A stretch of DNA of 22,642 bases from a virus (Duplodnaviria; Heunggongvirae; Uroviricota; Caudoviricetes), in the IMG/VR virus record IMGVR_UViG_2778261067_000001; one strand, written 5' to 3'. The notes under the pieces were generated by a model that saw only the letters and a list, made by a program, of their open reading frames with translations, did not search any database and was not told the DNA's origin. This document shows positions 5,170 to 22,134 of the stretch, in pieces; within the stretch, counting starts at the first letter, position 1, and each line of letters starts with the position of its first letter. The translations under genes and the position numbers were made by a program.

Positions 5170-8100
5170 TACCGATATGCTCCACTTAACCGACCACCAT
5201 CACGGGCCTGCTGTTGCATAAAGTCCGCTGCCGCTTTTTTCCCGAGGTCATAAACCGCCTTCAGGGCAGCCGGACCTATCTGCCCGTTCGTGCCATCGTT
5301 ATTGATCTCGATGTTGTACTGCGGGGAAAACATCGCCATACCTGAACCCCCAATATCCGCCACAACCCCCAGCTTACCGTCAGCACCACGACGCAATGGC
5401 AGAATGGCTTCAGGTCCCGCTTCCCCCATCACACCCGCGCCTTTTGCAAAAGCAAAAAACGTCGGACGGTTAACCACCGTGCCACTGTAACGACTCAAAT
5501 CAGCAGACTGATAAATCCCCCCATTGGCATTCAGGGAAAGGCTGCTGAGATCAAATCCCAGTACACTGCCAATCCCTTTTATCGATTTCATCATGGTTGC
5601 CTGCGCCAGGATTTTCGCCATATCTGACAGCACAGAAGAGGTGAAGGATTTGAAATTGAGTTTGCCGGTAGTGACAAAAGTTGCCAGGCCATTTCCCATG
5701 TTGCTGAAGGCTGACGAGAACACCTGTTCTGCTGTTTCTGCCGTATTATCTGCATCCACGGTAAAATCCTGAAATGCACGCAGGACTCCGTTTTTCCAGT
5801 TACCCTGCACAACTTCAAGCTGTTGCCAGTAACGGCGATTCTCATTCAGTTGTCGGTTCAGGCTCTCCGTCAGCGCCTGCTCGGCCTTTCTGTAGTCATC
5901 CGTGTTATATGTCCCTTTCTGCTCACTATCCCGCCTCAACTGCTCCAGCTGTTGCTGGTATTTCTGGCGAAGACTCAGTTGTACCTGATATCGCTGTCGC
6001 TGCTGATCACCCATACCCACCGTGGCGATATCCAGGTCATGTTGCTGACGCTGAGCGCGCTCTTCTTCAGCCAGTTGACTGGTCAGCTGAATTGTTTTTT
6101 TCTTCAGCTCGTTGAGTGCCGTCTGTTTCTGAAGCTCCTGCTGTTTTACATCCAGCAGCGTCAGTGCCTGAATCAGTTCATCTTTACGGGCCAGCACACT
6201 CTTTTCATCTGCCGTCAGTTTTTTCCCGTCCAGGTCGCTGATGCGCTGCTGCAGAGCCAGAAGCTGTTTATGCGCTTCTGTCATCCTTTCCGTGGCAATG
6301 CCTGCTGACTGTCTGGCAGCAGAAATCTGTCCTTCCACCTGTGCCTGTTGCTGACTGTACTGCAGCAATAACCGGGTGGCCTCATCATTACGGGTTTCGC
6401 GTGTTTTTTTCTTACCGGATGCCAGGGCTTTCTCGTAACGTTCATTTTCACGTTGTATCGCCGCATCCCTGACAGCCTGATCGGCGTACTGCATGGCATT
6501 AATACGTGCAATTTCACGCTGATGTCGTGCAGCTTCCGTTTCATTCATACGGTTCAGTGCAGCATTTTCAGCATTACGGCGTTTCTGTTGCTCCTGATAA
6601 TTCCGCTCTGCCTGCTCTTTTGCATCCTGCAAATCCTTCTGGCGTTTTTTCTCCTGAAGATCGTTAAGACGCTGCTGATCGTATTCAACCTGAGAAGATG
6701 ATGCCGTCCAGGGGAGTCTTTTCGCCCGCGACACTTTCTCCTGCAAAGTGGCAATCTGCGCATCCAGCGAATCTTCACGACCAATATTCATGGCCGCATC
6801 CCAGAACTGCTTCCACCAGTCAGACAAAGTTTGCAGCGTACTGCCCAGCGCATTGAGGTTATTATCAATATCCGCAGTACGCCGACCGGTTTCCTCTGCC
6901 AGTGCAGACATGGCTATCCGTGCCGCATCACTGGACCGCCCCTGCTCTCCAAGGACGCGTATCTGCTCAAGCTGAGTGGCAGTAAGAAAATGCAGCTCAT
7001 TGTCCAGAGACTTCGCGGCATTTACAGGATCATCCTTCAGCCGCTTAAACTGATTTATGGTATCGCTGACCGACTGGCCAACCGATCGCTCCATCTGTGC
7101 GGCAGCTCTCGCCACCATACCGATATCGTTTCCACGAAATGCACCACTCCCCACCACCTGAGCCAGCGCACCGGCTGCAGCATGTTGCGTGATACCATTC
7201 CCGGAAATAGCACGACTGAGCGTCCACAGCTGCCCGGCAGTGACTCCGGCATAATGCCCCGTCAGCGACAGCTGGCGGTTAAATTCTTCCCCCTCCTTCT
7301 GACCGTCATACCAGGCTTTACCCAGACCATAGACGGCCGCGGTAATACCGCCAATAACCCCGCCCAGCATCATGCCTTTCGGTGACATCAGTGTGTCTAT
7401 CCATCCGGCACGGTTAGCCAGCGTTATCCCGGATCCCCTCAGCGCCCCTAAATTGCCGCGGGCCAGTTCACCTATCAGAACGCCTATCTCCTGGCGGGCC
7501 GCTGCACTTTTCAGACCCAGCGAATGCGTGGCTTTTCCTGCCCGCTCCATTTTGCGGATATACACTTCTGCAGCACTGCTTACCCCCAGCTGGGCAGCCC
7601 TGGCACGAAGCAACTCAGAAGAAGAAAGATTCTGGCGGGTTGCCTGCTCTTTAAGCTGACGGATAAACGCCACTTTCTGTCGGGTAGCCTCTGCCTCAGC
7701 CTGCGTAAGAACACGGGTTTTCGCCGTAACCTCAGAAATCAGCGCCAGATAATCCTGCTGACCAATCCCGCCACTGTTTCTGGCCTGTCGGATCTGCTGC
7801 TGAATACGCTGTAATTCCTGCAGCCCCGCACTGGCCTGTTTCACACTGTCAATCTGACGATAAAACGCAGCAGCCGCTTTATCCTGAGCCTCCGCCAGAG
7901 CCATGGCCTGCGCCTGTTCCTCGCGCATTTTCTGGCTCAGTGCCTCCATGCGCTGGCGGGTTTTCTCCACCTCGCGGGCCATGCGTTCATGAGCCTGTGC
8001 GTTCTTCTCCACCGTCTGCGCATGGACGGATGCGGCTGTTGCAGCCGAAGAAGCTGCCTGCGTTGTCTGCCGGGCGGCCTGAGTCTGACGCTCCATAAAA

Positions 8101-10732: not shown

Positions 10733-11008
10733 TTACTCAATAAAGATCATTGGCTTACCGTTAAAGCGTTCATGCCGTGTGACCGTCCATTGTTGTCCGT
10801 CATAAACAACGCGATCCCCGCGCCGTGGGCGGTATCCCGAAGAAAACACCACCAGAGAGACCGCAGGTCCGGACAGAGCATTCAGCTCTGCCAGTGTTTC
10901 TCCCGGGATCACAGTCATATCGACATCATTAATCGAGGCTGTCTTTCCCATCTTTCTGACCGTGATCGCATCCATACGCGCTGCCAGCCGGGAAAAGGGA
11001 TCAGACAT
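10733..11008 (-). CDS. Head-tail joining protein (gpFII-like, head-tail attachment family)
   Basis: 91-aa ORF in the position of FII (immediately upstream of Z); weak resemblance to lambda FII; assignment rests on synteny and size. Confidence 0.6.
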   Translation of the reverse strand: MSDPFSRLAARMDAITVRKMGKTASINDVDMTVIPGETLAELNALSGPAVSLVVFSSGYRPRRGDRVVYDGQQWTVTRHERFNGKPMIFIE

Positions 11009-11324
11009 TGAGTTTTACCGGCACTTCTTCTGCACTGGTTCCGGCATCTGCCCAGACAACCCCGACCAGCGGATCAGAGCCGCTGTTAGTCAGCTGAACT
11101 TTTCCGGACTTCAGATAAACCTTCTTACCCGTTTTCATGTCATCCGTTTTCAGCTTAGGCAGCATAAACACACCTTCGGTCATGCCGTCGCCTGTTTCAC
11201 CCTGTGGAATATCGGTCAGCGCCACCGCAAAAACATCACCCACCTGCACCAGCTCTCCGCTGCTGATGGCTGCACTGGCAACAATCGCCACCGTTTTTCC
11301 TTCTTCTACAAAATTCTTTGCCAT
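11001..11324 (-). CDS. Hypothetical head protein (possible head decoration or head completion protein), 107 aa
   Basis: ATG at 11324 (MAKNFVEEGKTVAIVASAAISSGELVQVGDVFAVAL...) preceded by GGAGACAG; lies between the capsid gene and the FII-like gene. Function inferred from position only. Confidence 0.5.
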   Translation of the reverse strand: MAKNFVEEGKTVAIVASAAISSGELVQVGDVFAVALTDIPQGETGDGMTEGVFMLPKLKTDDMKTGKKVYLKSGKVQLTNSGSDPLVGVVWADAGTSAEEVPVKLNV

Positions 11325-11367
11325 AACTGTCTCCGCACAGCCCCGTTCAGGGGCTGATTTCAGGTAC

Positions 11368-11386
11368 AAAAAAAGCCCTTACGGGC
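11368..11386 (-). terminator. Rho-independent terminator immediately downstream of the capsid gene, with a second GC hairpin (11338-11356) before the next gene's SD
   Basis: Minus-strand RNA GCCC GUAA GGGC followed by UUUUUUU; second stem CAGCCCC/GGGGCUG at 11338-11356. Confidence 0.6.
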
Positions 11387-11410
11387 CATCAGAGTTGTTG
11401 TCTGCGACGT

Positions 11411-13369
11411 TTACGCCGTACATTTCACCAGACCGCGGTGATCAACTGGCGCGACACCGGCGTCAATACGCACTTTCGTTGTCACGCCATCCACACTGAA
11501 GCCCTCCATCTGATCAATATATGGCGTATCCACACCGTTGAGATAAGCCACTTCAATCGTATCGGAGCCTTTTGACGCAGCCAGGTAGAAGGTGGTCTGG
11601 CTGTTATCATCAAGACGAGGCTCTGCAATAACGGTCGCAAAATCTTTCACCGGGTTAATAATACCGGCGTTAATGTCAGCCCCCTTGACACTTGAGGAGC
11701 GAATGACCTGGTTAGCAACAGACTCCATCGCCGTCGGTACCAGTACGAACGCAGGACGAATATTCAGATGACGCTCCCCCTCTTTCTGAACGCGCATCAA
11801 CTGGCGGGCTTTATCCAGCGATGCCACGTCCATTGCAGCGCTCTCCAGTACGTTTGCATGTTTCGCTTTATCGAACAGACTTACATTATCTGTGGAGATT
11901 TTCGGGTTAGACGTCAGAATGGCATAAACCAGATCGGCAATAGTGGATTTCGCCGCACGGCCCAGTTTCATCGGGACATCGGTCAGCATATTCAGATCAT
12001 CATTGATAATGGCCTGACGGGTGATACTGAACAGCTCGCCATAGGTCGCCAGTGCAATAGTGGCCTGTTTATCTCCGGTGGTGACGTATTTATATTCCGC
12101 CCCTTCACGCACCTGACGCAGAGCACTGAAGCCCCCCATACCCACACGATGGGCAATTTTAAAATCAGACAACTGACCTTTCCGCGTCCATTGTTCATAG
12201 GTTTCAGGAGCATCTTCCCAGCCCTGCAGAATGGCTTTGTTCGCAACATCCAGCAGAATATTACCGAAGTCAGACGTACTGTGGGTGAACGCCGCACCGA
12301 CCATCTGCATCGGGTTATAACCGGAAACCCCAATACCCCGTTCAGTCAGTGACATACGGGCATATTCACGCAGGGTCATCCCGTTGTAGACATTATCACG
12401 TTCGGTTTTTTCAAATCCGGCACGCGCCATCAGCGCCTGGCGGATCCCGTCCCCCACAAAATTACCGTTACCAGCATAAATATGAGCCGGTGTATTTTTA
12501 TTGGATGGCGTGGACTCGCGCCCCATCTCGTTCAACAGCTTTTCGCGGGCCTGCTCCAGCGAACACTCAGGATCGGCAAGACACTGAGCCTGCAGCGTCT
12601 GATAACGCCCGCCAAACATGGCAAACAGATCATTAATACCGTTTACACGCGCTTTTTGCTCTGCCAGTACCTGCGCACGGATACTGTTTTCATCCACCAC
12701 GGGTGCTGCTGCCTGCACTGGCGTCCGGGAGGCTGCAGGTTCATCATCCTGTACGCGTGGAGCACTGTTGCGTGGCGGAGTAATCATGTTTCGAATGGAT
12801 TCCGGCATCTTTTTAAATTCCTCTGTACGTTTTGACTGAATACATGCCATTGCCTTAACGGCTGGCGTCACCTGATCAGCAAATCCATGTGCCAGACATT
12901 CGGCACCGGACATCCAGGTCTCATCCGCCAGCATGGCAGCAATTTCATCGGTGGTTTTCCCGGTTTTCTGTGCATAAGCGGGTAACAGAACCGCCTCAAC
13001 CTTATCGAGCAGGTCGGCATAGGTGCGCATGTCCTCCGCATCACCGCCCGTAAAGCCAAATGGTTTATGAATCATCATGAAGGTGTTTTCCGGCATAATG
13101 ACCGGGTTTCCCACCATCGCAATGACCGACGCCATTGACGCCGCCACACCGTCGACATAAACGGTAATGGACGCACCATGTGTTTTCAGCGCATTAAAAA
13201 TGGCGATGCCTTCAAAGACATCGCCACCCGGTGAATTGATATGGAGATTAATGTGGGTGATATCGCCCAGTGCATTCAGATCACTGATAAACTGCTTCGC
13301 TGTAACACCCCAGAAACCAATCTCGTCATAAATATAAATATCCGCGTCACTCTGGTGACCAGCCTGCAT
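11411..13369 (-). CDS. Prohead protease (ClpP/S14-like) fused to major capsid protein, ~652 aa from ATG at 13369
   Basis: N-terminal region has ClpP hallmarks: INSPGG, Ser nucleophile context GVAASMASV and His context MIHKPFGFTGG; the C-terminal ~400 aa is capsid-like. The track ORF extends to 13630 but overlaps the portal gene; ATG at 13369 lies 14 nt after the portal stop. Start is uncertain. Confidence 0.8.
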   Translation of the reverse strand: MQAGHQSDADIYIYDEIGFWGVTAKQFISDLNALGDITHINLHINSPGGDVFEGIAIFNALKTHGASITVYVDGVAASMASVIAMVGNPVIMPENTFMMIHKPFGFTGGDAEDMRTYADLLDKVEAVLLPAYAQKTGKTTDEIAAMLADETWMSGAECLAHGFADQVTPAVKAMACIQSKRTEEFKKMPESIRNMITPPRNSAPRVQDDEPAASRTPVQAAAPVVDENSIRAQVLAEQKARVNGINDLFAMFGGRYQTLQAQCLADPECSLEQAREKLLNEMGRESTPSNKNTPAHIYAGNGNFVGDGIRQALMARAGFEKTERDNVYNGMTLREYARMSLTERGIGVSGYNPMQMVGAAFTHSTSDFGNILLDVANKAILQGWEDAPETYEQWTRKGQLSDFKIAHRVGMGGFSALRQVREGAEYKYVTTGDKQATIALATYGELFSITRQAIINDDLNMLTDVPMKLGRAAKSTIADLVYAILTSNPKISTDNVSLFDKAKHANVLESAAMDVASLDKARQLMRVQKEGERHLNIRPAFVLVPTAMESVANQVIRSSSVKGADINAGIINPVKDFATVIAEPRLDDNSQTTFYLAASKGSDTIEVAYLNGVDTPYIDQMEGFSVDGVTTKVRIDAGVAPVDHRGLVKCTA

Positions 13370-13382
13370 CCTGAACCAGGAA

Positions 13383-14891
13383 TTATTCTTCGGACTGGTC
13401 GTCGGTGTGCTGCGGCTCCTGTCGTTTCGTTGCGGCACTGCTGCCTCCTTTATCACTGGCCGGATCGGTATCAAATACCAGATCCAGCTTGCGGTTTTCA
13501 TCAATTTCTGCCTTGCGCCGACGTTTGACATCATCCGGATTACGACCACCTGCACGTACCCAGTCTGATTCTGTCGCCGCTCCACCACGAATCTGAATTT
13601 TCCAGGCCTCAGCCTCCTTAACAGGGTCAATCCACGGCATCACCGGTCCGGAATACACCGCGGTATACAGTGAAGAACGGTCAAGATCGCGGGGTAGCCT
13701 GATAACACCGGATGCCACAGCCTGTTTCAGCCAGGCACGATACATCGGGCGGGTGACGGCACCAATAAACCAGTCCTGCAGGATCAGGTAGCCATCAGTG
13801 GATTCAACCAGCTCCTGACGCTGGGCGCTGTAAGTGCCGTTATAGTTGCGCGCTGTACTGGAAAAACTCAGACGACTGCCCGCCGCCACGGCACGCAACT
13901 GACCATTACGAAAAGTTTCAAGGTTAGGATTGGGGCGATCCGACTTCACCATTCCGATTTCTTCGCCGGGTTTCAGATCGTCGTAAATAATGCCTGGCTG
14001 AATGGTAAGCTCGCGTTCATTCTCCTTGCTGTCATTACCATCCGTTTCATAGCTCTGTCCGTCGCCTTTGCGGATGTACATCCCCAGAGCAGCAGCGATC
14101 CTTGCTGCAGTCAGCTCAGAATCTTCATATTCTTTCAGGGCACTGAGGCGGATCAGCACACCGGACAATAAAGACGTCCCGCGCATCTGGTGCAGACGGC
14201 GAACAAATTTAAGATGCAGCATTCGCTCTGCATCCACTTCTTTGGTTTCCATCTGCCGTCCGGATACAGGACGACTTTTATACACCAGATATTTTTCGGG
14301 ACGCCCCCAGTCATCAACAAACACGCCCTGATTCAGCCTGTTGCTCTCATCACTGGTCATGGGAATAAAGTCTGGCTCGAGTGCCTCCAGCCAGAAATGA
14401 ACACCGGCAGAAGGCGTCAGGCTGTTTATGCGCCCGGAAACCATCTGGGCAAACACCTCACCATCGCGCAGCCAAGTACGCAGCATCAGACGTTCCAGCA
14501 TCGGACGGGTAAACTGCCCGGTAACTTCCGGACTGACAGACCATTCACTCCATCGGGTGCGTATCTCCGCTGCCAGATCACGGGCAATGGCCCCATTGCG
14601 TAATACCGGATGTGGCTCGACAATAATCCCGTTTTTCCCCACCACCCGTTCTTCCAGCTTGTCAAATACACCAATGACCAGATCGTGGTTGTTATCAAGG
14701 TAACGGGCCTGCTCACGTAACGACACGGCCCCGTAGAGGCTTAACTGGTCGGCAGTTCGGTTTTCCCGCCGGGCTTTGTGTGTCCGCGTCGTTTTTACGG
14801 CCTCATAAGCCTGGATCACCGCCCGGGAACGCAGCCTTGCCGCTTTCCATCCTGGTGAAAAAACGCCAATCACATCATCAAGAATTGCCAT
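13383..14891 (-). CDS. B: Portal protein (lambda gpB family)
   Basis: ORF of ~500 aa directly downstream of the gpW-like gene; ATG at 14891 (MAILDDVIGVFSPGWKAARLRS...) overlaps the W stop (TGATG); size, position and acidic C-terminus fit a portal. Confidence 0.85.
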   Translation of the reverse strand: MAILDDVIGVFSPGWKAARLRSRAVIQAYEAVKTTRTHKARRENRTADQLSLYGAVSLREQARYLDNNHDLVIGVFDKLEERVVGKNGIIVEPHPVLRNGAIARDLAAEIRTRWSEWSVSPEVTGQFTRPMLERLMLRTWLRDGEVFAQMVSGRINSLTPSAGVHFWLEALEPDFIPMTSDESNRLNQGVFVDDWGRPEKYLVYKSRPVSGRQMETKEVDAERMLHLKFVRRLHQMRGTSLLSGVLIRLSALKEYEDSELTAARIAAALGMYIRKGDGQSYETDGNDSKENERELTIQPGIIYDDLKPGEEIGMVKSDRPNPNLETFRNGQLRAVAAGSRLSFSSTARNYNGTYSAQRQELVESTDGYLILQDWFIGAVTRPMYRAWLKQAVASGVIRLPRDLDRSSLYTAVYSGPVMPWIDPVKEAEAWKIQIRGGAATESDWVRAGGRNPDDVKRRRKAEIDENRKLDLVFDTDPASDKGGSSAATKRQEPQHTDDQSEE

Positions 14892-17985: not shown

Positions 17986-18119
17986 GATGAGCATCTGATA
18001 CAGCGCTTTACATAATGGCATAGGAATAATTCAGAAGGACATCACAGCATGCCCACACAAATTAGTGTGAGTGTCCTGTTTCTTCCTACGCACAGGACTG
18101 ACGAGCATGAGGGGAAAAT

Positions 18120-18287
18120 ATGCGAACCATAAATGCCTCATCTTCAGCAATGCAACCGGCATCCGAACAGGACGATATTGTAAATTCACCTAATTACGAG
18201 GACATTGCAGTAGTTGAATTGCAGCTCTGTATTAGCCTGACAGTGACAGAATGCGATATTGACTCTGTCACAGGTGAAATAGTTTGA
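18120..18287 (+). CDS. Hypothetical small acidic protein, 55 aa (below the ORF-track size threshold)
   Basis: ATG at 18120 preceded by GAGGGG; translation MRTINASSSAMQPASEQDDIVNSPNYEDIAVVELQLCISLTVTECDIDSVTGEIV; no homology recognised; could be non-coding. Confidence 0.25.
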   Translation: MRTINASSSAMQPASEQDDIVNSPNYEDIAVVELQLCISLTVTECDIDSVTGEIV

Positions 18288-18307
18288 ATGATTAGCAGTT
18301 ATGGTGC

Positions 18308-18514
18308 TCAGTCAACCACCAGGGAATAATCCTTCGAATTCTTATCGTGCTTCACCAACGCTGCCTCAATTGCCCTGAATGCTTCCAGAGACACCTGATG
18401 TTCTATACATGCAATTACAACATCCGGGTAACTCATAGAAATGGTGCTATTAAGCATATTTTTTACACGAATCAGATCCAACGAGAGTTCATCAGCAGAT
18501 TGTTCTTTATTCAT
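18308..18514 (-). CDS. ybcW: Small prophage protein of unknown function, YbcW-like (68 aa)
   Basis: 68-aa [71 protein letters not shown]; resembles from memory the E. coli K-12 DLP12 protein YbcW, which also lies next to a terminase small-subunit gene. Confidence 0.6.
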
Positions 18515-18814
18515 TTTGTCGCTCCATGCGTTTGCTCGTCATCTAGCGGTTAAAATATTACTTCAAATCTTACTGCATAAAAGAGGAAAAGTATGAAAGT
18601 TTGAGTACATCGACCTTACATACATCTGTCGGTTGCATATCCCTCCTGGATGCCAGCAAGGCTCAATTTTGTTACGCAATCAACACTATTCATCAAAAAC
18701 AGGCTTAATATTTGACATAAATCATCAACAAAACACAAAGAGGTCAGACCAGATTGAAACAATAAACACGATAATGCTAACTACGCGCCATCGTATCACA
18801 TGGAAGGTTTACCA

Positions 18815-19225
18815 ATGGCTCAGGCTGCCATTTTTAAAGAAATATTCGATCAAGTGCGTAAAGATTTAAACTGTGAATTATTTTATTCTGAGCTAAAACG
18901 TCACAATGTCTCACTTTATATTTACTATTTAGCCACAGATAATATTCACATTGTGTTAGAAAACGACAACATAGTGTTAGTAAAAGGACTCAAAAAGGTT
19001 GTAAATGTTAAATTCTCCAGAAACAAGCATCTTATAGAGACCTCCTATAATAAGTTGAAATCAAAAGAAATCACATTTCAACAATATAGGGAAAATCTTG
19101 CTAAAGCAGGAGTTTTCCGATGGGTTACAAATATCCAGGAACACCAAAGATATTACTATGCCTTTGATAACTCATTACTATTTACTGAAAGCATCCAGAA
19201 AACTACACAGATCTTACCACGCTAA
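18815..19225 (+). CDS. ydfO: DUF1398 family protein (YdfO/YbcV-like), unknown function
   Basis: [54 protein letters not shown]...[39 protein letters not shown]; ATG at 18815 has GGAAGG 7 nt upstream (alternative ATG 18800); the only convincing plus-strand gene in the window. Confidence 0.65.
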
Positions 19226-19321
19226 ACCATAACGTCCGGCTTCTCTCACTCCTGAGCCGGACTGCATTGGTTTAATAAAAACCATCAACAATTGTGATTT
19301 AGATATTCGGAACCATTCAAA

Positions 19322-19347
19322 TATAACAAAACCCCGTAAAAACGAGG
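19322..19347 (-). terminator. Terminator-like hairpin downstream of the gnsB-like gene
   Basis: Minus-strand RNA CCUCG UUUUUA CGGGG followed by UUUUGUUAU (one G-U pair in the stem). Confidence 0.45.
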
Positions 19348-19376
19348 TTTATGGATAAATTTTATTATTGAATACA

Positions 19377-19553
19377 TCAGATTAAATTAATCTTGACATC
19401 ATAGCTTTCAAGACCCGTCATTTTTTCCCGTGCGGTAAACTGAATACTGGTAACTTCTTTCCCGGTCTTTTTCTTAAGTTCAATAATTTTTTTTGTTATA
19501 TATTCAGAAATATCTGCTTCTGCTTTTGTTTTTAAGTTTTCAATATTCATCAT
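19377..19553 (-). CDS. gnsB: GnsB-like small protein (Gns family), 58 aa
   Basis: Not in the ORF track (under 60 aa). Minus-strand translation MMNIENLKTKAEADISEYITKKIIELKKKTGKEVTSIQFTAREKMTGLESYDVKINLI; ATG preceded by AAGAGGAA; closely resembles E. coli GnsA/GnsB as I recall them (...TGKEVSEIRFTAREKMTGLESYDVKIKIM). Confidence 0.7.
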   Translation of the reverse strand: MMNIENLKTKAEADISEYITKKIIELKKKTGKEVTSIQFTAREKMTGLESYDVKINLI

Positions 19554-19721
19554 TTCCTCTTTTAGTCTGTTATGACTTTCCAGTTACACAGTAAGTCGAT
19601 TATATGGTGCAAACGTGTAAAAGATAAGATGAAACATCGCAATAATCAACATACGATAGTCTAAATTTTACACAAACAGACAAAGAGAATTTTCCTGAAT
19701 TATCAATACAATAGCATCAAA

Positions 19722-19994
19722 TCAACTCAAGAGCCTTATTGCTGCTTCCAGAATTTCTTCTGAAGTAACATGTCGATCCGCGGCTACATAAATGACTTTA
19801 TGATCTCCGGTCAGAGATGGAAACCCTGCGGCCATTACAGTAAGGTGTGTTTTTTCGCCATTTGGATATTCACGCATGATGGTGTTAACTCCAGTCATCG
19901 CTGGCACTACCACTGCTGGTTCAGAGTTAAAAAAAACTATGATTTTTTTCATGATGTTACCGTAGTATGTGAGTATCCATCGAATAGATACCAA
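19722..19994 (-). CDS. Hypothetical small protein (76-90 aa) between the cspI-like and gnsB-like genes; by synteny possibly the counterpart of Qin ynfN
   Basis: Track ORF begins at a TTG (19994) preceded by GGGAG; internal ATG at 19952 gives MKKIIVFFNSEPAVVVPAMTGVNTIMREYPNGEKTHLTVMAAGFPSLTGDHKVIYVAADRHVTSEEILEAAIRLLS. No recognised motifs; start and reality uncertain. Confidence 0.4.
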   Translation of the reverse strand: MVSIRWILTYYGNIMKKIIVFFNSEPAVVVPAMTGVNTIMREYPNGEKTHLTVMAAGFPSLTGDHKVIYVAADRHVTSEEILEAAIRLLS

Positions 19995-20016
19995 GCAAAA
20001 AAGCTCCCGAAGGAGC
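19995..20016 (-). terminator. Rho-independent terminator (GCUCC UUCG GGAGC + U6) downstream of the cspI-like gene
   Basis: Perfect 5-bp GC-rich stem with UUCG tetraloop followed by UUUUUUG on the minus strand. Confidence 0.6.
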
Positions 20017-20223
20017 CTTCATTTTCACTTTTTTAAATCCAACGACAGACGGCTGGCATTTAAGTATTGTGAAATATTATCAAATGTAATCATCATTGAT
20101 TTACAAAAGATACATTTTGCCCCGAAAGGATTCATGTCAGAAACATCAAAAGATGATGTTCTATACTGGGAACCATGACAACACGGGCATCTAAAGTGAA
20201 TATGGTTTGTAATATTGTCTACC

Positions 20224-20436
20224 TCAAAGCGCCACTACATGAACAGCGGCAGGACCTTTAGGTCCGTTCTCAATACCAAATTCAACTTCCTGATTCTCAG
20301 TTAATGTTTTGAAATCGTTGCTCTGAATTGCTGAGAAATGGACAAACACATCTTTGCTGCCATCTTTCGGCGTGATGAAACCAAAACCTTTTTCAGGGTT
20401 AAACCATTTCACTAAACCAGTCATTTTGTTAGACAT
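20224..20436 (-). CDS. cspI: Cold-shock protein, CspA family (CspI-like)
   Basis: 70-aa [73 protein letters not shown] with RNP1 (KGFGFI) and RNP2 (VFVHF) motifs. Confidence 0.92.
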
Positions 20437-20620
20437 AATTATTACCTTTTGAAGAAATTAGCCCTTGGGCAGAATGGTCCGAAAAAAAATATCAGAGAGA
20501 AAAACCAACAAGGAAATCTCAAGAGGTACAAATAATAAAATTATAACAATGACTGCTTCAGATAAATTTGTAACAAACCAGAACACCATTAACGCATGAT
20601 TAACCACCCATAGCAAGGAT
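20437..20620 (-). promoter_or_regulatory. Putative long AT-rich 5' UTR / promoter region of the cspI-like gene
   Basis: ~360-bp AT-rich non-coding gap upstream of cspI; CspA-family genes characteristically have ~150-nt regulatory leaders (established knowledge); boundaries not determinable from sequence alone. Confidence 0.35.
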
Positions 20621-20798
20621 TACTTTTGTAAAGAAAAACACAGCAATGAAAGAATAGCTTTATTTATTAATAAAACGTGTCATTCTGATTAAGACCTTTT
20701 ATCTTACCCTTAAGATTTCAGGAATTTTGGCTCATGGAAGAGTCCTTTTTATTTAAATTTTACATTCCGCGATGTAAATGTTCCGATTTAATATTACC

Positions 20799-21822
<1,024 letters not shown>

Positions 21823-21826
<4 letters not shown>

Positions 21827-22134
21827 ATATATTTATGATGAGGACGCTCGTGCTTATTGGCAGGATTTTCAATCTTAAAGGAGTACTGATGCTGCAGATA
21901 AGACTCAACTTTTTCTGACAATTTTTCTGCTACTTCCAGGAAGACTTGCCGGACGCTCCTTCTGGCTGCTGCCTCATAAAACTCCAGCGCAGCTCCTTCA
22001 ACACGGTCCATGGCGACATCCAGGTCAAAAATTTCACCGTCAAAGCGTTCCTTGTCCTGTAAGGCTACAGTTACCGTAACTTTATTCTCAAAATTACGGA
22101 CTCCTTTCACAACCAGTTCATAGTCTTGAGTCAT
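21823..22134 (-). CDS. ydfR: DUF1327-family protein (YdfR-like) inserted between holin and endolysin
   Basis: 103-aa ORF MTQDYELVVKGVRNFENKVTVTVALQDKERFDGEIFDLDVAMDRVEGAALEFYEAAARRSV...; GAGGAGAG Shine-Dalgarno; position matches ydfR in the K-12 Qin lysis cassette. Confidence 0.7.

What the first reader, a model, noticed from the sequence alone, without database searches (positions are those of the whole stretch)
11411..13369. Single ORF encoding a ClpP-like prohead protease fused to the major capsid protein
In lambda the protease (C), scaffold (Nu3), decoration (D) and capsid (E) proteins are separate genes; here one ~650-740-aa ORF has an N-terminal ClpP/S14-type protease (INSPGG, Ser in GVAASMAS, His in MIHKPFGFTGG) joined through a low-complexity linker to a capsid domain. 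This implies a self-processing capsid precursor and a head module of different ancestry from the lambda-like tail module, so the prophage is mosaic. The true start is uncertain because the long ORF overlaps the portal gene.
Basis: partly seen in the sequence, partly recalled or inferred. Interest (0 to 1): 0.5.

Follow-up and report, generated by a model that had tools for sequence, protein, structure and literature searches.

The report
Fused protease-scaffold-capsid gene of a prophage
This is a real single phage gene that joins a ClpP-type head-maturation protease, a scaffold-like segment and the major capsid protein, but it is a well-known, curated protein family found in about 40% of complete E. 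coli genomes, so it is ordinary.

Summary
One uninterrupted minus-strand ORF (stop at 11411) encodes an N-terminal ClpP/S14 protease domain and a C-terminal HK97-fold capsid domain. Ser101, His124 and an acidic residue at 173 are conserved. The capsid domain matches Pfam Phage_capsid_4 and is Mu gpT-like.

Two corrections:
- The start is most likely GTG 13438, giving 675 aa, not ATG 13369. It has an AAGGAGG Shine-Dalgarno site, it is conserved in ten homologs at 71-88% nucleotide identity, and the peptide SWFR upstream of the ATG is under protein-level selection.
- Between the disordered linker and the capsid domain lies a conserved three-helix module that is probably a scaffold. The gene is therefore a protease-scaffold-capsid triple fusion.

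The protein scores 986 bits (cutoff 475) on NCBIfam NF045540, [quoted passage not shown]. RefSeq gives it that name. It is 98-99.8% identical to genes of isolated phages (mEp460, cdtI, Tritos, Ayreon, phi458). Such fusions are described in the literature.

Autoproteolytic maturation is a sound inference but was not tested here. I found no experimental mapping of the cleavage site. The mosaic claim holds only for the block that replaces lambda C-Nu3-D-E. Terminase, portal and tail belong to lambda families.

Verdict: already known, low interest.

The parts
13444..13450 (-). Shine-Dalgarno AAGGAGG, 5 nt upstream of the GTG start; lies inside the 3' end of the portal gene
   Evidence: Read directly from the sequence. 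Duplex energy with the anti-SD is -10.0 kcal/mol, against -2.7 for the ATG at 13369. AAAGGAGG (AAAGGGGG in L011) followed by the start codon sits at the same position in 10 homologs of 71-88% nucleotide identity.
11411..13438 (-). Protease-scaffold-major capsid protein fusion gene. Preferred model: GTG start, 675 aa, 73.5 kDa, stop codon at 11411-11413. The first 56 nt overlap the portal gene out of frame.
   Evidence: ORF list. RefSeq PGAP uses this start for WP_001136590.1. NF045540 scores 986 bits. The start is conserved and is ATG instead of GTG in L014. Synonymous diversity drops to 0.13-0.18 in codons 1-16, against 0.46 overall, as expected for dual coding.
13367..13369 (-).
   Evidence: No SD. 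The SWFR codons upstream of it change synonymously among homologs (AGG/CGC/CGT/CGG; TCC/TCG; TTC/TTT). The motif W-[FY]-x-[MILV]-x-A is present in many distant homologs in which this position is not Met. Residues 22-26 form a predicted beta strand.
13382..13438 (-). Residues 1-19: basic, variable, disordered N-terminal tail
   Evidence: pLDDT below 50. Low conservation and frequent gaps.
12854..13381 (-). Residues 20-195: ClpP/S14-fold protease domain. Ser101 = 13136-13138, His124 = 13067-13069, Glu173 = 12920-12922.
12779..12853 (-). Residues 196-220: short helical connector with the conserved motif F208-x-x-M-P212; holds Met211, a weak candidate internal start
   Evidence: AF2 helices 203-207 and 213-219. 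F 77/91, P 82/91, M 43/91. SD-like GAGGAA scores -5.8 kcal/mol. There is only a mild dip in synonymous diversity, to 0.28.
12698..12778 (-). Residues 221-247: Pro/Ala-rich, variable-length, disordered linker
   Evidence: Length polymorphism among close homologs. Gap fraction up to 0.49 and conservation 0.15. pLDDT below 50. Composition P6 A6 of 27 residues.
12515..12691 (-). Residues 250-308: conserved three-helix module; inferred internal scaffolding (delta-domain-like) segment
   Evidence: AF2 helices 250-273, 280-288 and 294-308 with pLDDT 84-95. R264 is invariant; I268, C286, D289, A297 and L302 are at least 90% conserved. The scaffold function is inferred from position and from the MD8 analysis in PMC8508860.
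12467..12514 (-). Residues 309-324: disordered junction; candidate zone for the maturation cleavage that frees the capsid domain
   Evidence: pLDDT below 50 for residues 310-324. Low conservation apart from P311, 87/91. Unfused relatives of the capsid domain begin near here (P0218). The cleavage itself is not shown.
11414..12466 (-). Residues 325-675: major capsid protein domain with HK97 fold, Mu gpT-like (about 38-40 kDa if released)
11364..11387 (-). Terminator-like GC hairpin plus T-run immediately after the fusion gene
   Evidence: Consensus scan gives GGCCCGTAAGGGCT followed by TTTTTTT. A rho-independent terminator is annotated at the equivalent place in mEp460.
13383..14891 (-). Upstream neighbour: portal protein, lambda family (502 aa)
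   Evidence: Pfam Phage_portal_2 E=9.5e-82. 21% identity to lambda gpB, E=1e-9.
11001..11324 (-). Downstream neighbour: capsid cement/decoration protein (107 aa, DUF2190)
   Evidence: Pfam Phage_cement_2 E=1.5e-20. PHROG 122 'head decoration'. It is the downstream neighbour of the fusion gene in all 8 homologous contigs fetched.

Best explanation
The gene encodes a 675-aa capsid precursor of a lambdoid prophage of the mEp460/cdtI type, integrated at the Qin locus.

From N- to C-terminus the precursor has:
- a short basic tail;
- a ClpP-fold serine protease domain;
- a flexible Pro/Ala-rich linker;
- a three-helix scaffold-like module;
- a short disordered junction;
- an HK97-fold major capsid domain.

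SHOWN here: the single ORF, the two folds, the conserved Ser-His-acid residues, the domain boundaries, the conserved start, the conserved gene order portal - fusion - cement protein, and near-identity to isolated phages.

INFERRED mechanism: translation starts at GTG 13438, inside the end of the portal gene. About 415 copies, assuming T=7 for a genome of about 45 kb, co-assemble on the portal into a procapsid. The capsid domains form the shell. The scaffold module and the protease domain point inward, so every subunit brings its own scaffold and protease. This would replace the separate lambda genes C, Nu3 and E. Once the shell closes, the crowded protease domains would cut the linker and the junction near residues 309-324, and would degrade themselves and the scaffold. 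The fragments would leave, and a capsid protein of about 38-40 kDa would remain. That shell would expand on DNA packaging and be stabilised by the cement protein encoded downstream.
For: - Single ORF.
- Full-length match to the curated fusion family NF045540, 986 bits against a cutoff of 475, and to PHROG 133.
- Domain matches in Pfam.
- ClpP alignment covering the catalytic Ser and His, with Ser101 and His124 invariant and an acidic residue at 173 in 89/91 homologs.
- AF2 model at pLDDT 81.5 that gives the domain boundaries.
- The same gene is present in 2125 of 5426 complete E. coli genomes.
- It is 98-99.8% identical in isolated phages mEp460, cdtI, Tritos, Ayreon and phi458.
- Ten homologs at 71-88% nucleotide identity keep one ORF, the same SD and start, and the portal/cement neighbours.
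- No other MCP gene was seen among the head-to-tail genes scanned (portal, fusion, cement protein, Gifsy-2 family, Z, U, V).
- The same architecture is interpreted the same way in the literature: MD8 in PMC8508860, Paracoccus prophages in PMC6536676, and actinobacteriophages in PMC5513430 and PMC7302621.
Against: No experiment on this protein was found. The cleavage sites, the stoichiometry, and whether the protease domain acts in cis or in trans are all unknown. My literature searches found only sequence-based descriptions.

ClpP normally works as a stack of heptameric rings. How a domain tethered to hexamers and pentamers becomes active is not explained.

The scaffold role of residues 250-308 rests on position, helicity and conservation alone. 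hhalign found no similarity to lambda Nu3.

The T number and copy number are assumed from genome size.
Confidence: 0.85

Rival explanations
1. Gene-model rival: translation starts at ATG 13369 (652 aa), as the first reader and the mEp460 and cdtI records have it, perhaps by re-initiation after the portal stop codon 13 nt upstream.
For: The ATG lies just after the portal stop at 13383-13385, so translational coupling is conceivable. Several deposited records use this start. The NF045540 model aligns only from about residue 9 of the 652-aa form.
Against: The ATG has no SD: -2.7 against -10.0 kcal/mol for the GTG. AAAGGAGG and the upstream start are kept in all 10 diverged homologs (AAAGGGGG in L011), and the start is ATG in one of them. 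The SWFR codons upstream of the ATG vary only synonymously. The W-[FY] motif is present in distant homologs in which the equivalent of Met24 is I, L or V. Residues 22-26 are a modelled beta strand.
Confidence: 0.1
2. Two products from one gene: besides the full-length precursor, an internal start at Met211 (12806-12808) makes a protease-less scaffold-capsid protein of 465 aa and 50.7 kDa. This would set the protease:capsid ratio, as the nested genes Nu3 in C (lambda) and Z in I (Mu) do.
For: A GAGGAA motif lies upstream of Met211, -5.8 kcal/mol. The 39 nt around it are identical in a homolog of 77% overall nucleotide identity. Synonymous diversity dips to 0.28 at codons 197-208, against 0.46 overall. 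Met occupies this column in 43/91 homologs, next to the conserved Pro212. Lambda has a nested scaffold gene, nu3 within C; the Mu I/Z case is from general knowledge.
Against: The SD-like site is weak and widely spaced. Dips of similar depth (0.28-0.32) occur at several other places in the gene. Met is absent from this column in about half of the family, so an internal start cannot be a general requirement. The local conservation can be explained by the protein motif F-x-x-M-P.
Confidence: 0.1
3. The ClpP-like domain is catalytically dead or purely structural (a cargo or scaffold extension), and a host or other phage protease, or nothing, processes the precursor.
For: The third triad position is Glu rather than the canonical Asp in this protein and in 73/91 homologs. 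No biochemical data were found.
Against: Ser101, His124 and Gly71-Gly72 (the position of the ClpP oxyanion-hole glycine, from general knowledge) are invariant across 91 homologs of 41-96% identity to this protein. That pattern is expected only if catalysis is under selection. No other protease was found among the genes scanned from the large terminase to the major tail protein.
Confidence: 0.04
4. Artefact: two adjacent genes (protease-scaffold and capsid) are joined by a sequencing or assembly frameshift or by decay of a prophage pseudogene.
For: Some database entries with this domain are clearly chimeric or truncated, for example the 1027-1135 aa entries that also carry terminase or portal domains, and the partial entries. 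Decayed copies exist, namely KD602 and the IS629-disrupted VT1-Sakai copy.
Against: The identical ORF is found in hundreds of independent complete genomes and in isolated phages. Ten homologs that differ at 12-29% of nucleotides all keep one frame. Most of the best 150 relatives of the capsid domain, from a library clustered at 50% identity, are 600-800 aa with the capsid match at the C-terminus. Curated family models of the fusion exist.
Confidence: 0.01

Closest known systems
gp05 of Enterobacteria phage mEp460 (YP_007112079) and the equivalent genes of phages cdtI, Tritos, Ayreon, phi458, HannyBb and PhiR47_1; RefSeq WP_001136590.1
   Same: Essentially the same gene: 98.3-99.8% nucleotide identity over the 2040-nt query, which covers the whole gene. 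Neighbours are the same, and the whole structural region is 95-98% identical. RefSeq names it 'ClpP-like prohead protease/major capsid protein fusion protein'.
   Different: Only the annotation differs. Phage records call it variously 'head maturation protease', 'protease/scaffold protein', 'major capsid protein' or 'Nu3', and mEp460 and cdtI use the later ATG start.
Pseudomonas phage MD8 gp5 (PMC8508860) and the ClpP + Mu-gpT fused proteins of about 700 aa in Paracoccus prophages (PMC6536676)
   Same: Same architecture and the same interpretation: an N-terminal ClpP-type protease, a middle scaffold-like region and a C-terminal Mu-gpT-like HK97-fold capsid domain in one gene of about 650-700 aa.
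   Different: Different hosts. Their sequence relationship to this protein was not measured here; diverse fused ClpP-type relatives in the protein collections are about 34-59% identical. Those papers are also based on sequence only.
HK97 gp4/gp5 and Pseudomonas phage D3
   Same: The scaffold is an N-terminal domain of the capsid protein, present 1:1 with it, and a phage protease removes it after assembly. The cleavage region is flexible. The capsid has the HK97 fold.
   Different: In HK97 and D3 the protease is a separate gene. HK97 gp4 belongs to the S78 family (general knowledge). Here the protease is ClpP/S14 and is covalently attached upstream of the scaffold. This capsid domain is of the Mu-gpT/Phage_capsid_4 type rather than the HK97 gp5 type.
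Lambda head genes C (S49 protease), Nu3 (nested scaffold), D (decoration) and E (capsid)
   Different: The capsid protein is also fused here. No similarity to gpE was detected and none to the Nu3 part of C. The decoration protein is a DUF2190 cement protein encoded after the capsid gene, not a gpD homolog encoded before it.
NCBIfam NF045541 and other fused relatives that carry S78 or S49 proteases
   Same: The capsid and scaffold parts are homologous: NF045541 matches residues 197-649 at 402 bits. Relatives P0143, P0182 and P0200 carry S78 + Phage_capsid_4, and P0238 carries S49 + Phage_capsid_4.
   Different: The N-terminal protease belongs to a different family. The score is below the NF045541 cutoff of 525, so this protein is not a member.
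Protease-capsid fusions of small actinobacteriophages (Arthrobacter clusters AM, AU and AN; Microbacterium cluster EE)
   Same: Protease, scaffold and capsid functions sit in one gene.
   Different: The hosts are unrelated. No sequence comparison with this protein was made here, so the likeness is in architecture only.

Membership tests
NCBIfam NF045540: ClpP-like prohead protease/major capsid protein fusion protein | Full-length HMM score above the curated cutoff | tested here: met
   985.9 bits against a cutoff of 475; the alignment covers model positions 2-651 of 652.
NCBIfam NF045540: ClpP-like prohead protease/major capsid protein fusion protein | Protease and capsid domains in one uninterrupted reading frame | tested here: met
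   ORF 11411-13630 has no stop. The same single frame is kept in 10 homologs at 71-88% nucleotide identity.
NCBIfam NF045540: ClpP-like prohead protease/major capsid protein fusion protein | Located in a phage head-gene cluster, next to the portal gene | tested here: met
   Order: terminase GpA, head-tail adaptor, lambda-family portal, fusion, cement protein, then Z, U and V tail genes. The portal and cement neighbours are present in all 8 contigs fetched.
Peptidase family S14 (ClpP) | ClpP fold | tested here: met
Peptidase family S14 (ClpP) | Catalytic Ser-His-Asp triad at the canonical positions | tested here: met
   The Ser of AASM and the His of MIH-P align with the same motifs in ClpP. 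Ser101 and His124 are 91/91. The third position is acidic in 89/91 homologs but is Glu here, not Asp.
Peptidase family S14 (ClpP) | Double heptameric ring that works with a Clp ATPase | not testable with these tools
   No oligomer prediction was made. The family cutoffs for cellular ClpP are not reached, for example TIGR00493 at 59.7 bits against 308.6. This is a ClpP-related phage protease, not a cellular ClpP.
Peptidase family S14 (ClpP) | Proteolytic activity | not testable with these tools
   Needs biochemistry or a Ser101Ala mutant.
HK97-fold major capsid proteins, Mu gpT-like group (Pfam PF25209 Phage_capsid_4 and PF10124) | Profile match above the curated threshold | tested here: met
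   PF25209: 187.3 bits against 27. PF10124: 33.5 bits against 20.1.
HK97-fold major capsid proteins, Mu gpT-like group (Pfam PF25209 Phage_capsid_4 and PF10124) | HK97 fold and homology to capsid proteins seen in solved capsids | tested here: met
HK97-fold major capsid proteins, Mu gpT-like group (Pfam PF25209 Phage_capsid_4 and PF10124) | Is the main shell protein of the virion | not testable with these tools
   No other MCP-like gene was found among the head-to-tail genes scanned. No virion proteomics for this phage group was found.
Lambda-type head module (C/Nu3/D/E) | S49 (SppA-type) protease gpC | tested here: not met
   Pfam assigns S14 and gives no S49 hit. hhalign to gpC gives only E=5e-4 and probability 31%, restricted to the protease core.
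Lambda-type head module (C/Nu3/D/E) | gpE-type capsid protein and gpD decoration protein | tested here: not met
   No similarity to gpE, E=0.39. The decoration gene is a Phage_cement_2/DUF2190 protein.
Lambda-type head module (C/Nu3/D/E) | Scaffold made from a nested in-frame internal start | tested here: inconclusive
   There is only a weak candidate at Met211. It has no clear signal in synonymous-site conservation.
HK97-type assembly (scaffold domain fused to the capsid protein) | N-terminal scaffolding domain contiguous with the capsid domain and removed by proteolysis | tested here: inconclusive
   A conserved three-helix module (residues 250-308) followed by a disordered junction (309-324) lies directly upstream of the capsid domain. 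Its scaffold function and its removal are inferred.
HK97-type assembly (scaffold domain fused to the capsid protein) | Separate S78 protease gene | tested here: not met
   The protease is S14 and lies in the same ORF.

The most novel reading that the evidence does not exclude
The maturation pathway of this very common E. coli prophage head type may be unusual and, as far as I could find, is uncharacterised. Two readings remain open. In the first, every one of the roughly 415 shell subunits carries its own ClpP-fold protease, which must become active while tethered to hexamers and pentamers rather than in the canonical heptameric rings. That would be a new way of activating a ClpP-fold enzyme. 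In the second, the gene also makes a protease-less scaffold-capsid protein from an internal start near Met211, which would set the protease dose as the nested genes of lambda (C/Nu3) and Mu (I/Z) do. A related open point: the same fused capsid gene carries S14, S78 or S49 proteases in different phages. This implies repeated swapping of the protease inside a fused gene.
Probability: 0.12. Interest if true: 0.45.

Novelty: already known. Interest (0 to 1): 0.12.

Why it matters
For genome annotation it matters little, because the gene is already named correctly by RefSeq/NCBIfam and similar fusions are described in several papers.

The useful by-products are:
- a better-supported start codon (GTG 13438, overlapping the portal gene by 56 nt);
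- an explicit domain map with a candidate cleavage zone, which would guide mass-spectrometry or mutagenesis work;
- a reminder that many phage records label this gene misleadingly as only 'protease', 'Nu3' or 'major capsid protein'.

Biologically, a 1:1:1 covalent protease-scaffold-capsid precursor is the most compact known way to encode head assembly. It is carried by about 40% of complete E. coli genomes and by some Stx- and Cdt-converting phages. An experimental description of its maturation would fill a small gap.

Tried and rejected
1. AlphaFold on a shallow alignment of close homologs (A1, 19 sequences at 75-96% identity) gave pLDDT 36 and was discarded. A second run on 91 sequences obtained through a profile search gave pLDDT 81.5.
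3. Hit H69 (strain KD602, annotated as a stand-alone 'head maturation protease') looked like a natural unfused variant. It is only a deletion remnant in a decayed prophage at the Qin locus.
4. Internal initiation. I scanned every in-frame ATG/GTG/TTG for SD pairing, checked Met conservation and computed sliding-window synonymous diversity over 10 codon-aligned homologs. Only the portal-overlap region stands out. Met211 is not convincing.
5. Relationship to lambda head proteins. hhalign to gpC gave only a weak match to the protease core, with none to the Nu3 part, and hhalign to gpE gave nothing.
6. Literature searches for experimental cleavage mapping or virion proteomics of this fused family found only bioinformatic descriptions. 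Two older key papers (Cheng et al. 2004; Liu & Mushegian 2004) are not held in the library.
7. Sequencing artefact or pseudogene: rejected on conservation.
Full report
**What is in the sequence.** The feature lies on the minus strand. A single open reading frame with no internal stop runs from 13630 down to the stop codon at 11411-11413 (739 codons from the first possible TTG). The portal gene ends at 13383, so any earlier start overlaps it.

**Domain content.**
- Pfam places CLP_protease at residues 23-168 (E=4.5e-36) and Phage_capsid_4 (PF25209) at 352-649 (E=8.3e-55), with a weaker Mu-like_gpT match.
- NCBIfam's full-length model NF045540, named 'ClpP-like prohead protease/major capsid protein fusion protein', scores 985.9 bits against a curated cutoff of 475. 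The domain model NF045542, 'head maturation protease, ClpP-related', scores 215.8 against 120. Models for cellular ClpP stay far below their cutoffs.
- PHROG 133 matches end to end.
- PDB sequences matched by the single protein are all ClpP.
- In 91 homologs that are 41-96% identical to this protein, Ser101 and His124 (675-aa numbering) are invariant. Position 173, which aligns with the ClpP catalytic Asp, is Glu or Asp in 89 of 91. Gly71-Gly72 are invariant.

**It is a known gene.**
- Megablast finds the gene in 2125 of 5426 complete E. coli genomes, 1426 of them at 99% identity or more. RefSeq annotates it as 'ClpP-like prohead protease/major capsid protein fusion protein'.
- It is 98.3-99.8% identical in isolated phages (mEp460, cdtI, Tritos, Ayreon, phi458, HannyBb and the PhiR phages). 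It is about 78% identical in Stx-converting and related phages (VT1-Sakai, CP-1639, 1720a-02).
- Most of the window is 95-98% identical to such phages and 98-99% identical to an E. coli prophage next to Qin-type genes (essQ, rrrQ, cspI, gnsB).
- Fused protease-(scaffold)-capsid genes have been described for Pseudomonas phage MD8 (PMC8508860). They have also been described for about a third of the Paracoccus siphoviral prophages, as proteins of about 700 aa with ClpP and Mu-gpT domains (PMC6536676), and for small actinobacteriophages (PMC5513430, PMC7302621).

**Start codon.** The evidence favours GTG at 13436-13438 (675 aa, 73.5 kDa), which is the start PGAP uses.
- The GTG is preceded by AAGGAGG with a 5-nt spacer. 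Pairing energy with the anti-SD is -10.0 kcal/mol, against -2.7 for the ATG at 13369.
- In ten homologs of 71-88% nucleotide identity (E. coli, Salmonella, Klebsiella, Raoultella, Enterobacter, Kosakonia and metagenomic contigs), AAAGGAGG (AAAGGGGG in L011) plus a start codon sits at the same position. In one homolog the codon is ATG instead of GTG.
- The codons for Ser-Trp-Phe-Arg just upstream of the ATG differ only synonymously among these homologs (AGG/CGC/CGT/CGG, TCC/TCG, TTC/TTT). That shows protein-level selection on them.
- Many homologs at 34-59% identity have the same K-x-W-[FY]-x-[MILV]-x-A motif. The residue equivalent to Met24 is often Ile, Leu or Val.
- The structure model places residues 22-26 in a beta strand paired with strand 31-36.
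- Synonymous diversity is 0.13-0.18 in codons 1-16, against 0.46 for the whole gene, as expected for the 56-nt out-of-frame overlap with the portal gene.

**Anatomy.** A first AlphaFold run on close homologs failed (pLDDT 36). A second run on 91 diverse fused homologs gave pLDDT 81.5. Together with the conservation profile, it gives this map in 675-aa numbering:

| Residues | Feature |
|---|---|
| 1-19 | Disordered basic tail |
| 20-195 | ClpP fold, pLDDT above 90 over most of the domain |
| 196-220 | Two short helices with the conserved motif F-x-x-M-P |
| 221-247 | Pro/Ala-rich disordered linker of variable length |
| 250-308 | Well-predicted, conserved three-helix module (R264 invariant) |
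| 309-324 | Disordered, poorly conserved junction, apart from P311 (87/91) |
| 325-675 | Capsid domain |

- A profile of the C-terminal part finds solved 'Mu GpT domain-containing' capsid proteins (8rkc and 8rkx, E=7e-12) and capsid protein 9jod (E=4.6e-8).
- BFVD matches are viral ClpP-like proteases and major capsid proteins.
The gene is a protease-scaffold-capsid triple fusion, as was argued for MD8.

**Context.** Along the minus strand the order is:
- lambda-family large terminase (GpA ATPase and nuclease domains);
- a 72-aa head-tail adaptor;
- lambda-family portal (only 21% identical to lambda gpB);
- the fusion gene;
- a terminator-like hairpin at 11387-11374, also annotated in mEp460;
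- a DUF2190/Phage_cement_2 decoration protein;
- a 91-aa Gifsy-2-family protein;
- lambda-type Z, U and V.

No similarity to lambda gpE was detected. Similarity to gpC is weak and confined to the protease core, and there is none to Nu3. The mosaic claim therefore holds for the block that replaces C-Nu3-D-E, not for the head and packaging region as a whole.

**How it most likely works.**
- *Shown:* one ORF; two folds; conserved catalytic residues; a flexible linker and junction; a conserved helical module; conserved synteny; and near-identity to isolated phages.
- *Inferred, from the established biology of HK97, D3, lambda and Mu (and general knowledge):* the 73.5-kDa precursor assembles on the portal. 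The capsid domains form the shell. The scaffold module and protease domain lie inside, one of each per subunit. After assembly the proteases cut the linker and the junction and degrade the internal parts. This leaves a capsid protein of about 38-40 kDa, which expands on packaging and is reinforced by the cement protein.
- I put 0.85 on this overall picture. The exact cleavage sites, cis versus trans action and the oligomeric state of the protease are unknown.

**Rivals.**
- The ATG start (0.1) is disfavoured by the comparative data above.
- An internal start at Met211 that would make a protease-less scaffold-capsid protein (0.1) has only weak support. The support is a GAGGAA motif, 39 identical nucleotides in a homolog of 77% identity, a mild synonymous dip to 0.28, and Met in 43/91 homologs. 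Comparable dips occur elsewhere in the gene, and half of the family lacks the Met.
- A dead protease domain (0.04) is hard to reconcile with the invariant Ser, His and Gly-Gly.
- An assembly or frameshift artefact (0.01) is excluded by conservation.

**Wider family.** The capsid part has 10,652 relatives at E<=1e-3 in a library clustered at 50% identity. Most of the best 150 are 600-800 aa long with the capsid match at the C-terminus, so the fused form is the norm in this capsid family. The N-terminal protease is not always ClpP. Some relatives carry Peptidase_S78 and one carries Peptidase_S49, and a few appear unfused. NCBIfam has a second model, NF045541, for non-ClpP fusions. It matches only residues 197-649 of this protein and scores below its cutoff.

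**Verdict.** Interest is low. What remains open is experimental: no cleavage map or procapsid structure for this fused family turned up in the searches I could run.

Noticed in passing
window 13383-13438 (minus strand): The fusion gene overlaps the 3' end of the portal gene by 56 nt, out of frame. The overlap, the SD and the start are kept in homologs from several enterobacterial genera. Synonymous diversity there is 0.13-0.18, against 0.46 across the gene.
   Followed up: yes
relatives P0143, P0182, P0200 (S78), P0238 (S49), P0218 and P0133 (no protease domain found); The same Phage_capsid_4 capsid domain is found fused to three different prohead-protease families (ClpP/S14, S78, S49), and occasionally without a protease domain. 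This suggests repeated replacement of the protease within a fused gene.
   Followed up: partly
window 11364-11387 (minus strand): A GC-rich hairpin plus T-run lies directly after the fusion gene and before the cement-protein gene. It matches the rho-independent terminator annotated in mEp460. It may act as an attenuator that lowers expression of downstream genes relative to the capsid gene.
   Followed up: partly
window about 18000-21000: A low-GC stretch (0.34-0.39, against 0.50-0.60 in the structural genes). Part of it, 19379-21836, aligns at 92.6% with a region of the Ecol_316 prophage that holds Qin-type lysis genes (rrrQ, rzpQ) and the small genes cspI, ynfQ, ynfN and gnsB. The window's segment 18591-19379 has almost no match to that prophage.
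   Followed up: partly
L005 (E. coli KD602, NZ_CM145715.1) 6013-6846; phage VT1-Sakai AP000400.1 23257-26588: Decayed copies of the gene. In KD602 it is cut off after about 278 codons by a deletion that runs into the tail-fibre region at the Qin locus. In VT1-Sakai an IS629 interrupts it.
   Followed up: partly
window 10733-11008 (minus strand): A 91-aa protein of Pfam family PF13856 (Gifsy-2). It carries conflicting names: Pfam 'ATP-binding sugar transporter from pro-phage', RefSeq 'DNA breaking-rejoining protein', PHROG 'minor tail protein'. Its position between the cement protein and gpZ suggests a head-completion or head-tail joining role, so the names look like misnomers.
   Followed up: no
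database proteins P0006, P0033, P0034, P0061, P0064, P0080: Several entries of 750-1135 aa join this protein to terminase, portal, tail-L or tail-fibre domains. They are probably assembly or gene-calling chimeras, or rearranged and decayed prophages, rather than real larger fusions.
   Followed up: no
phage records: The same gene is annotated inconsistently across GenBank phage records: 'head-tail preconnector protein Nu3', 'protease C', 'major capsid protein', 'head maturation protease', 'scaffolding protein'. This can hide the capsid gene from annotation-based surveys.
   Followed up: no
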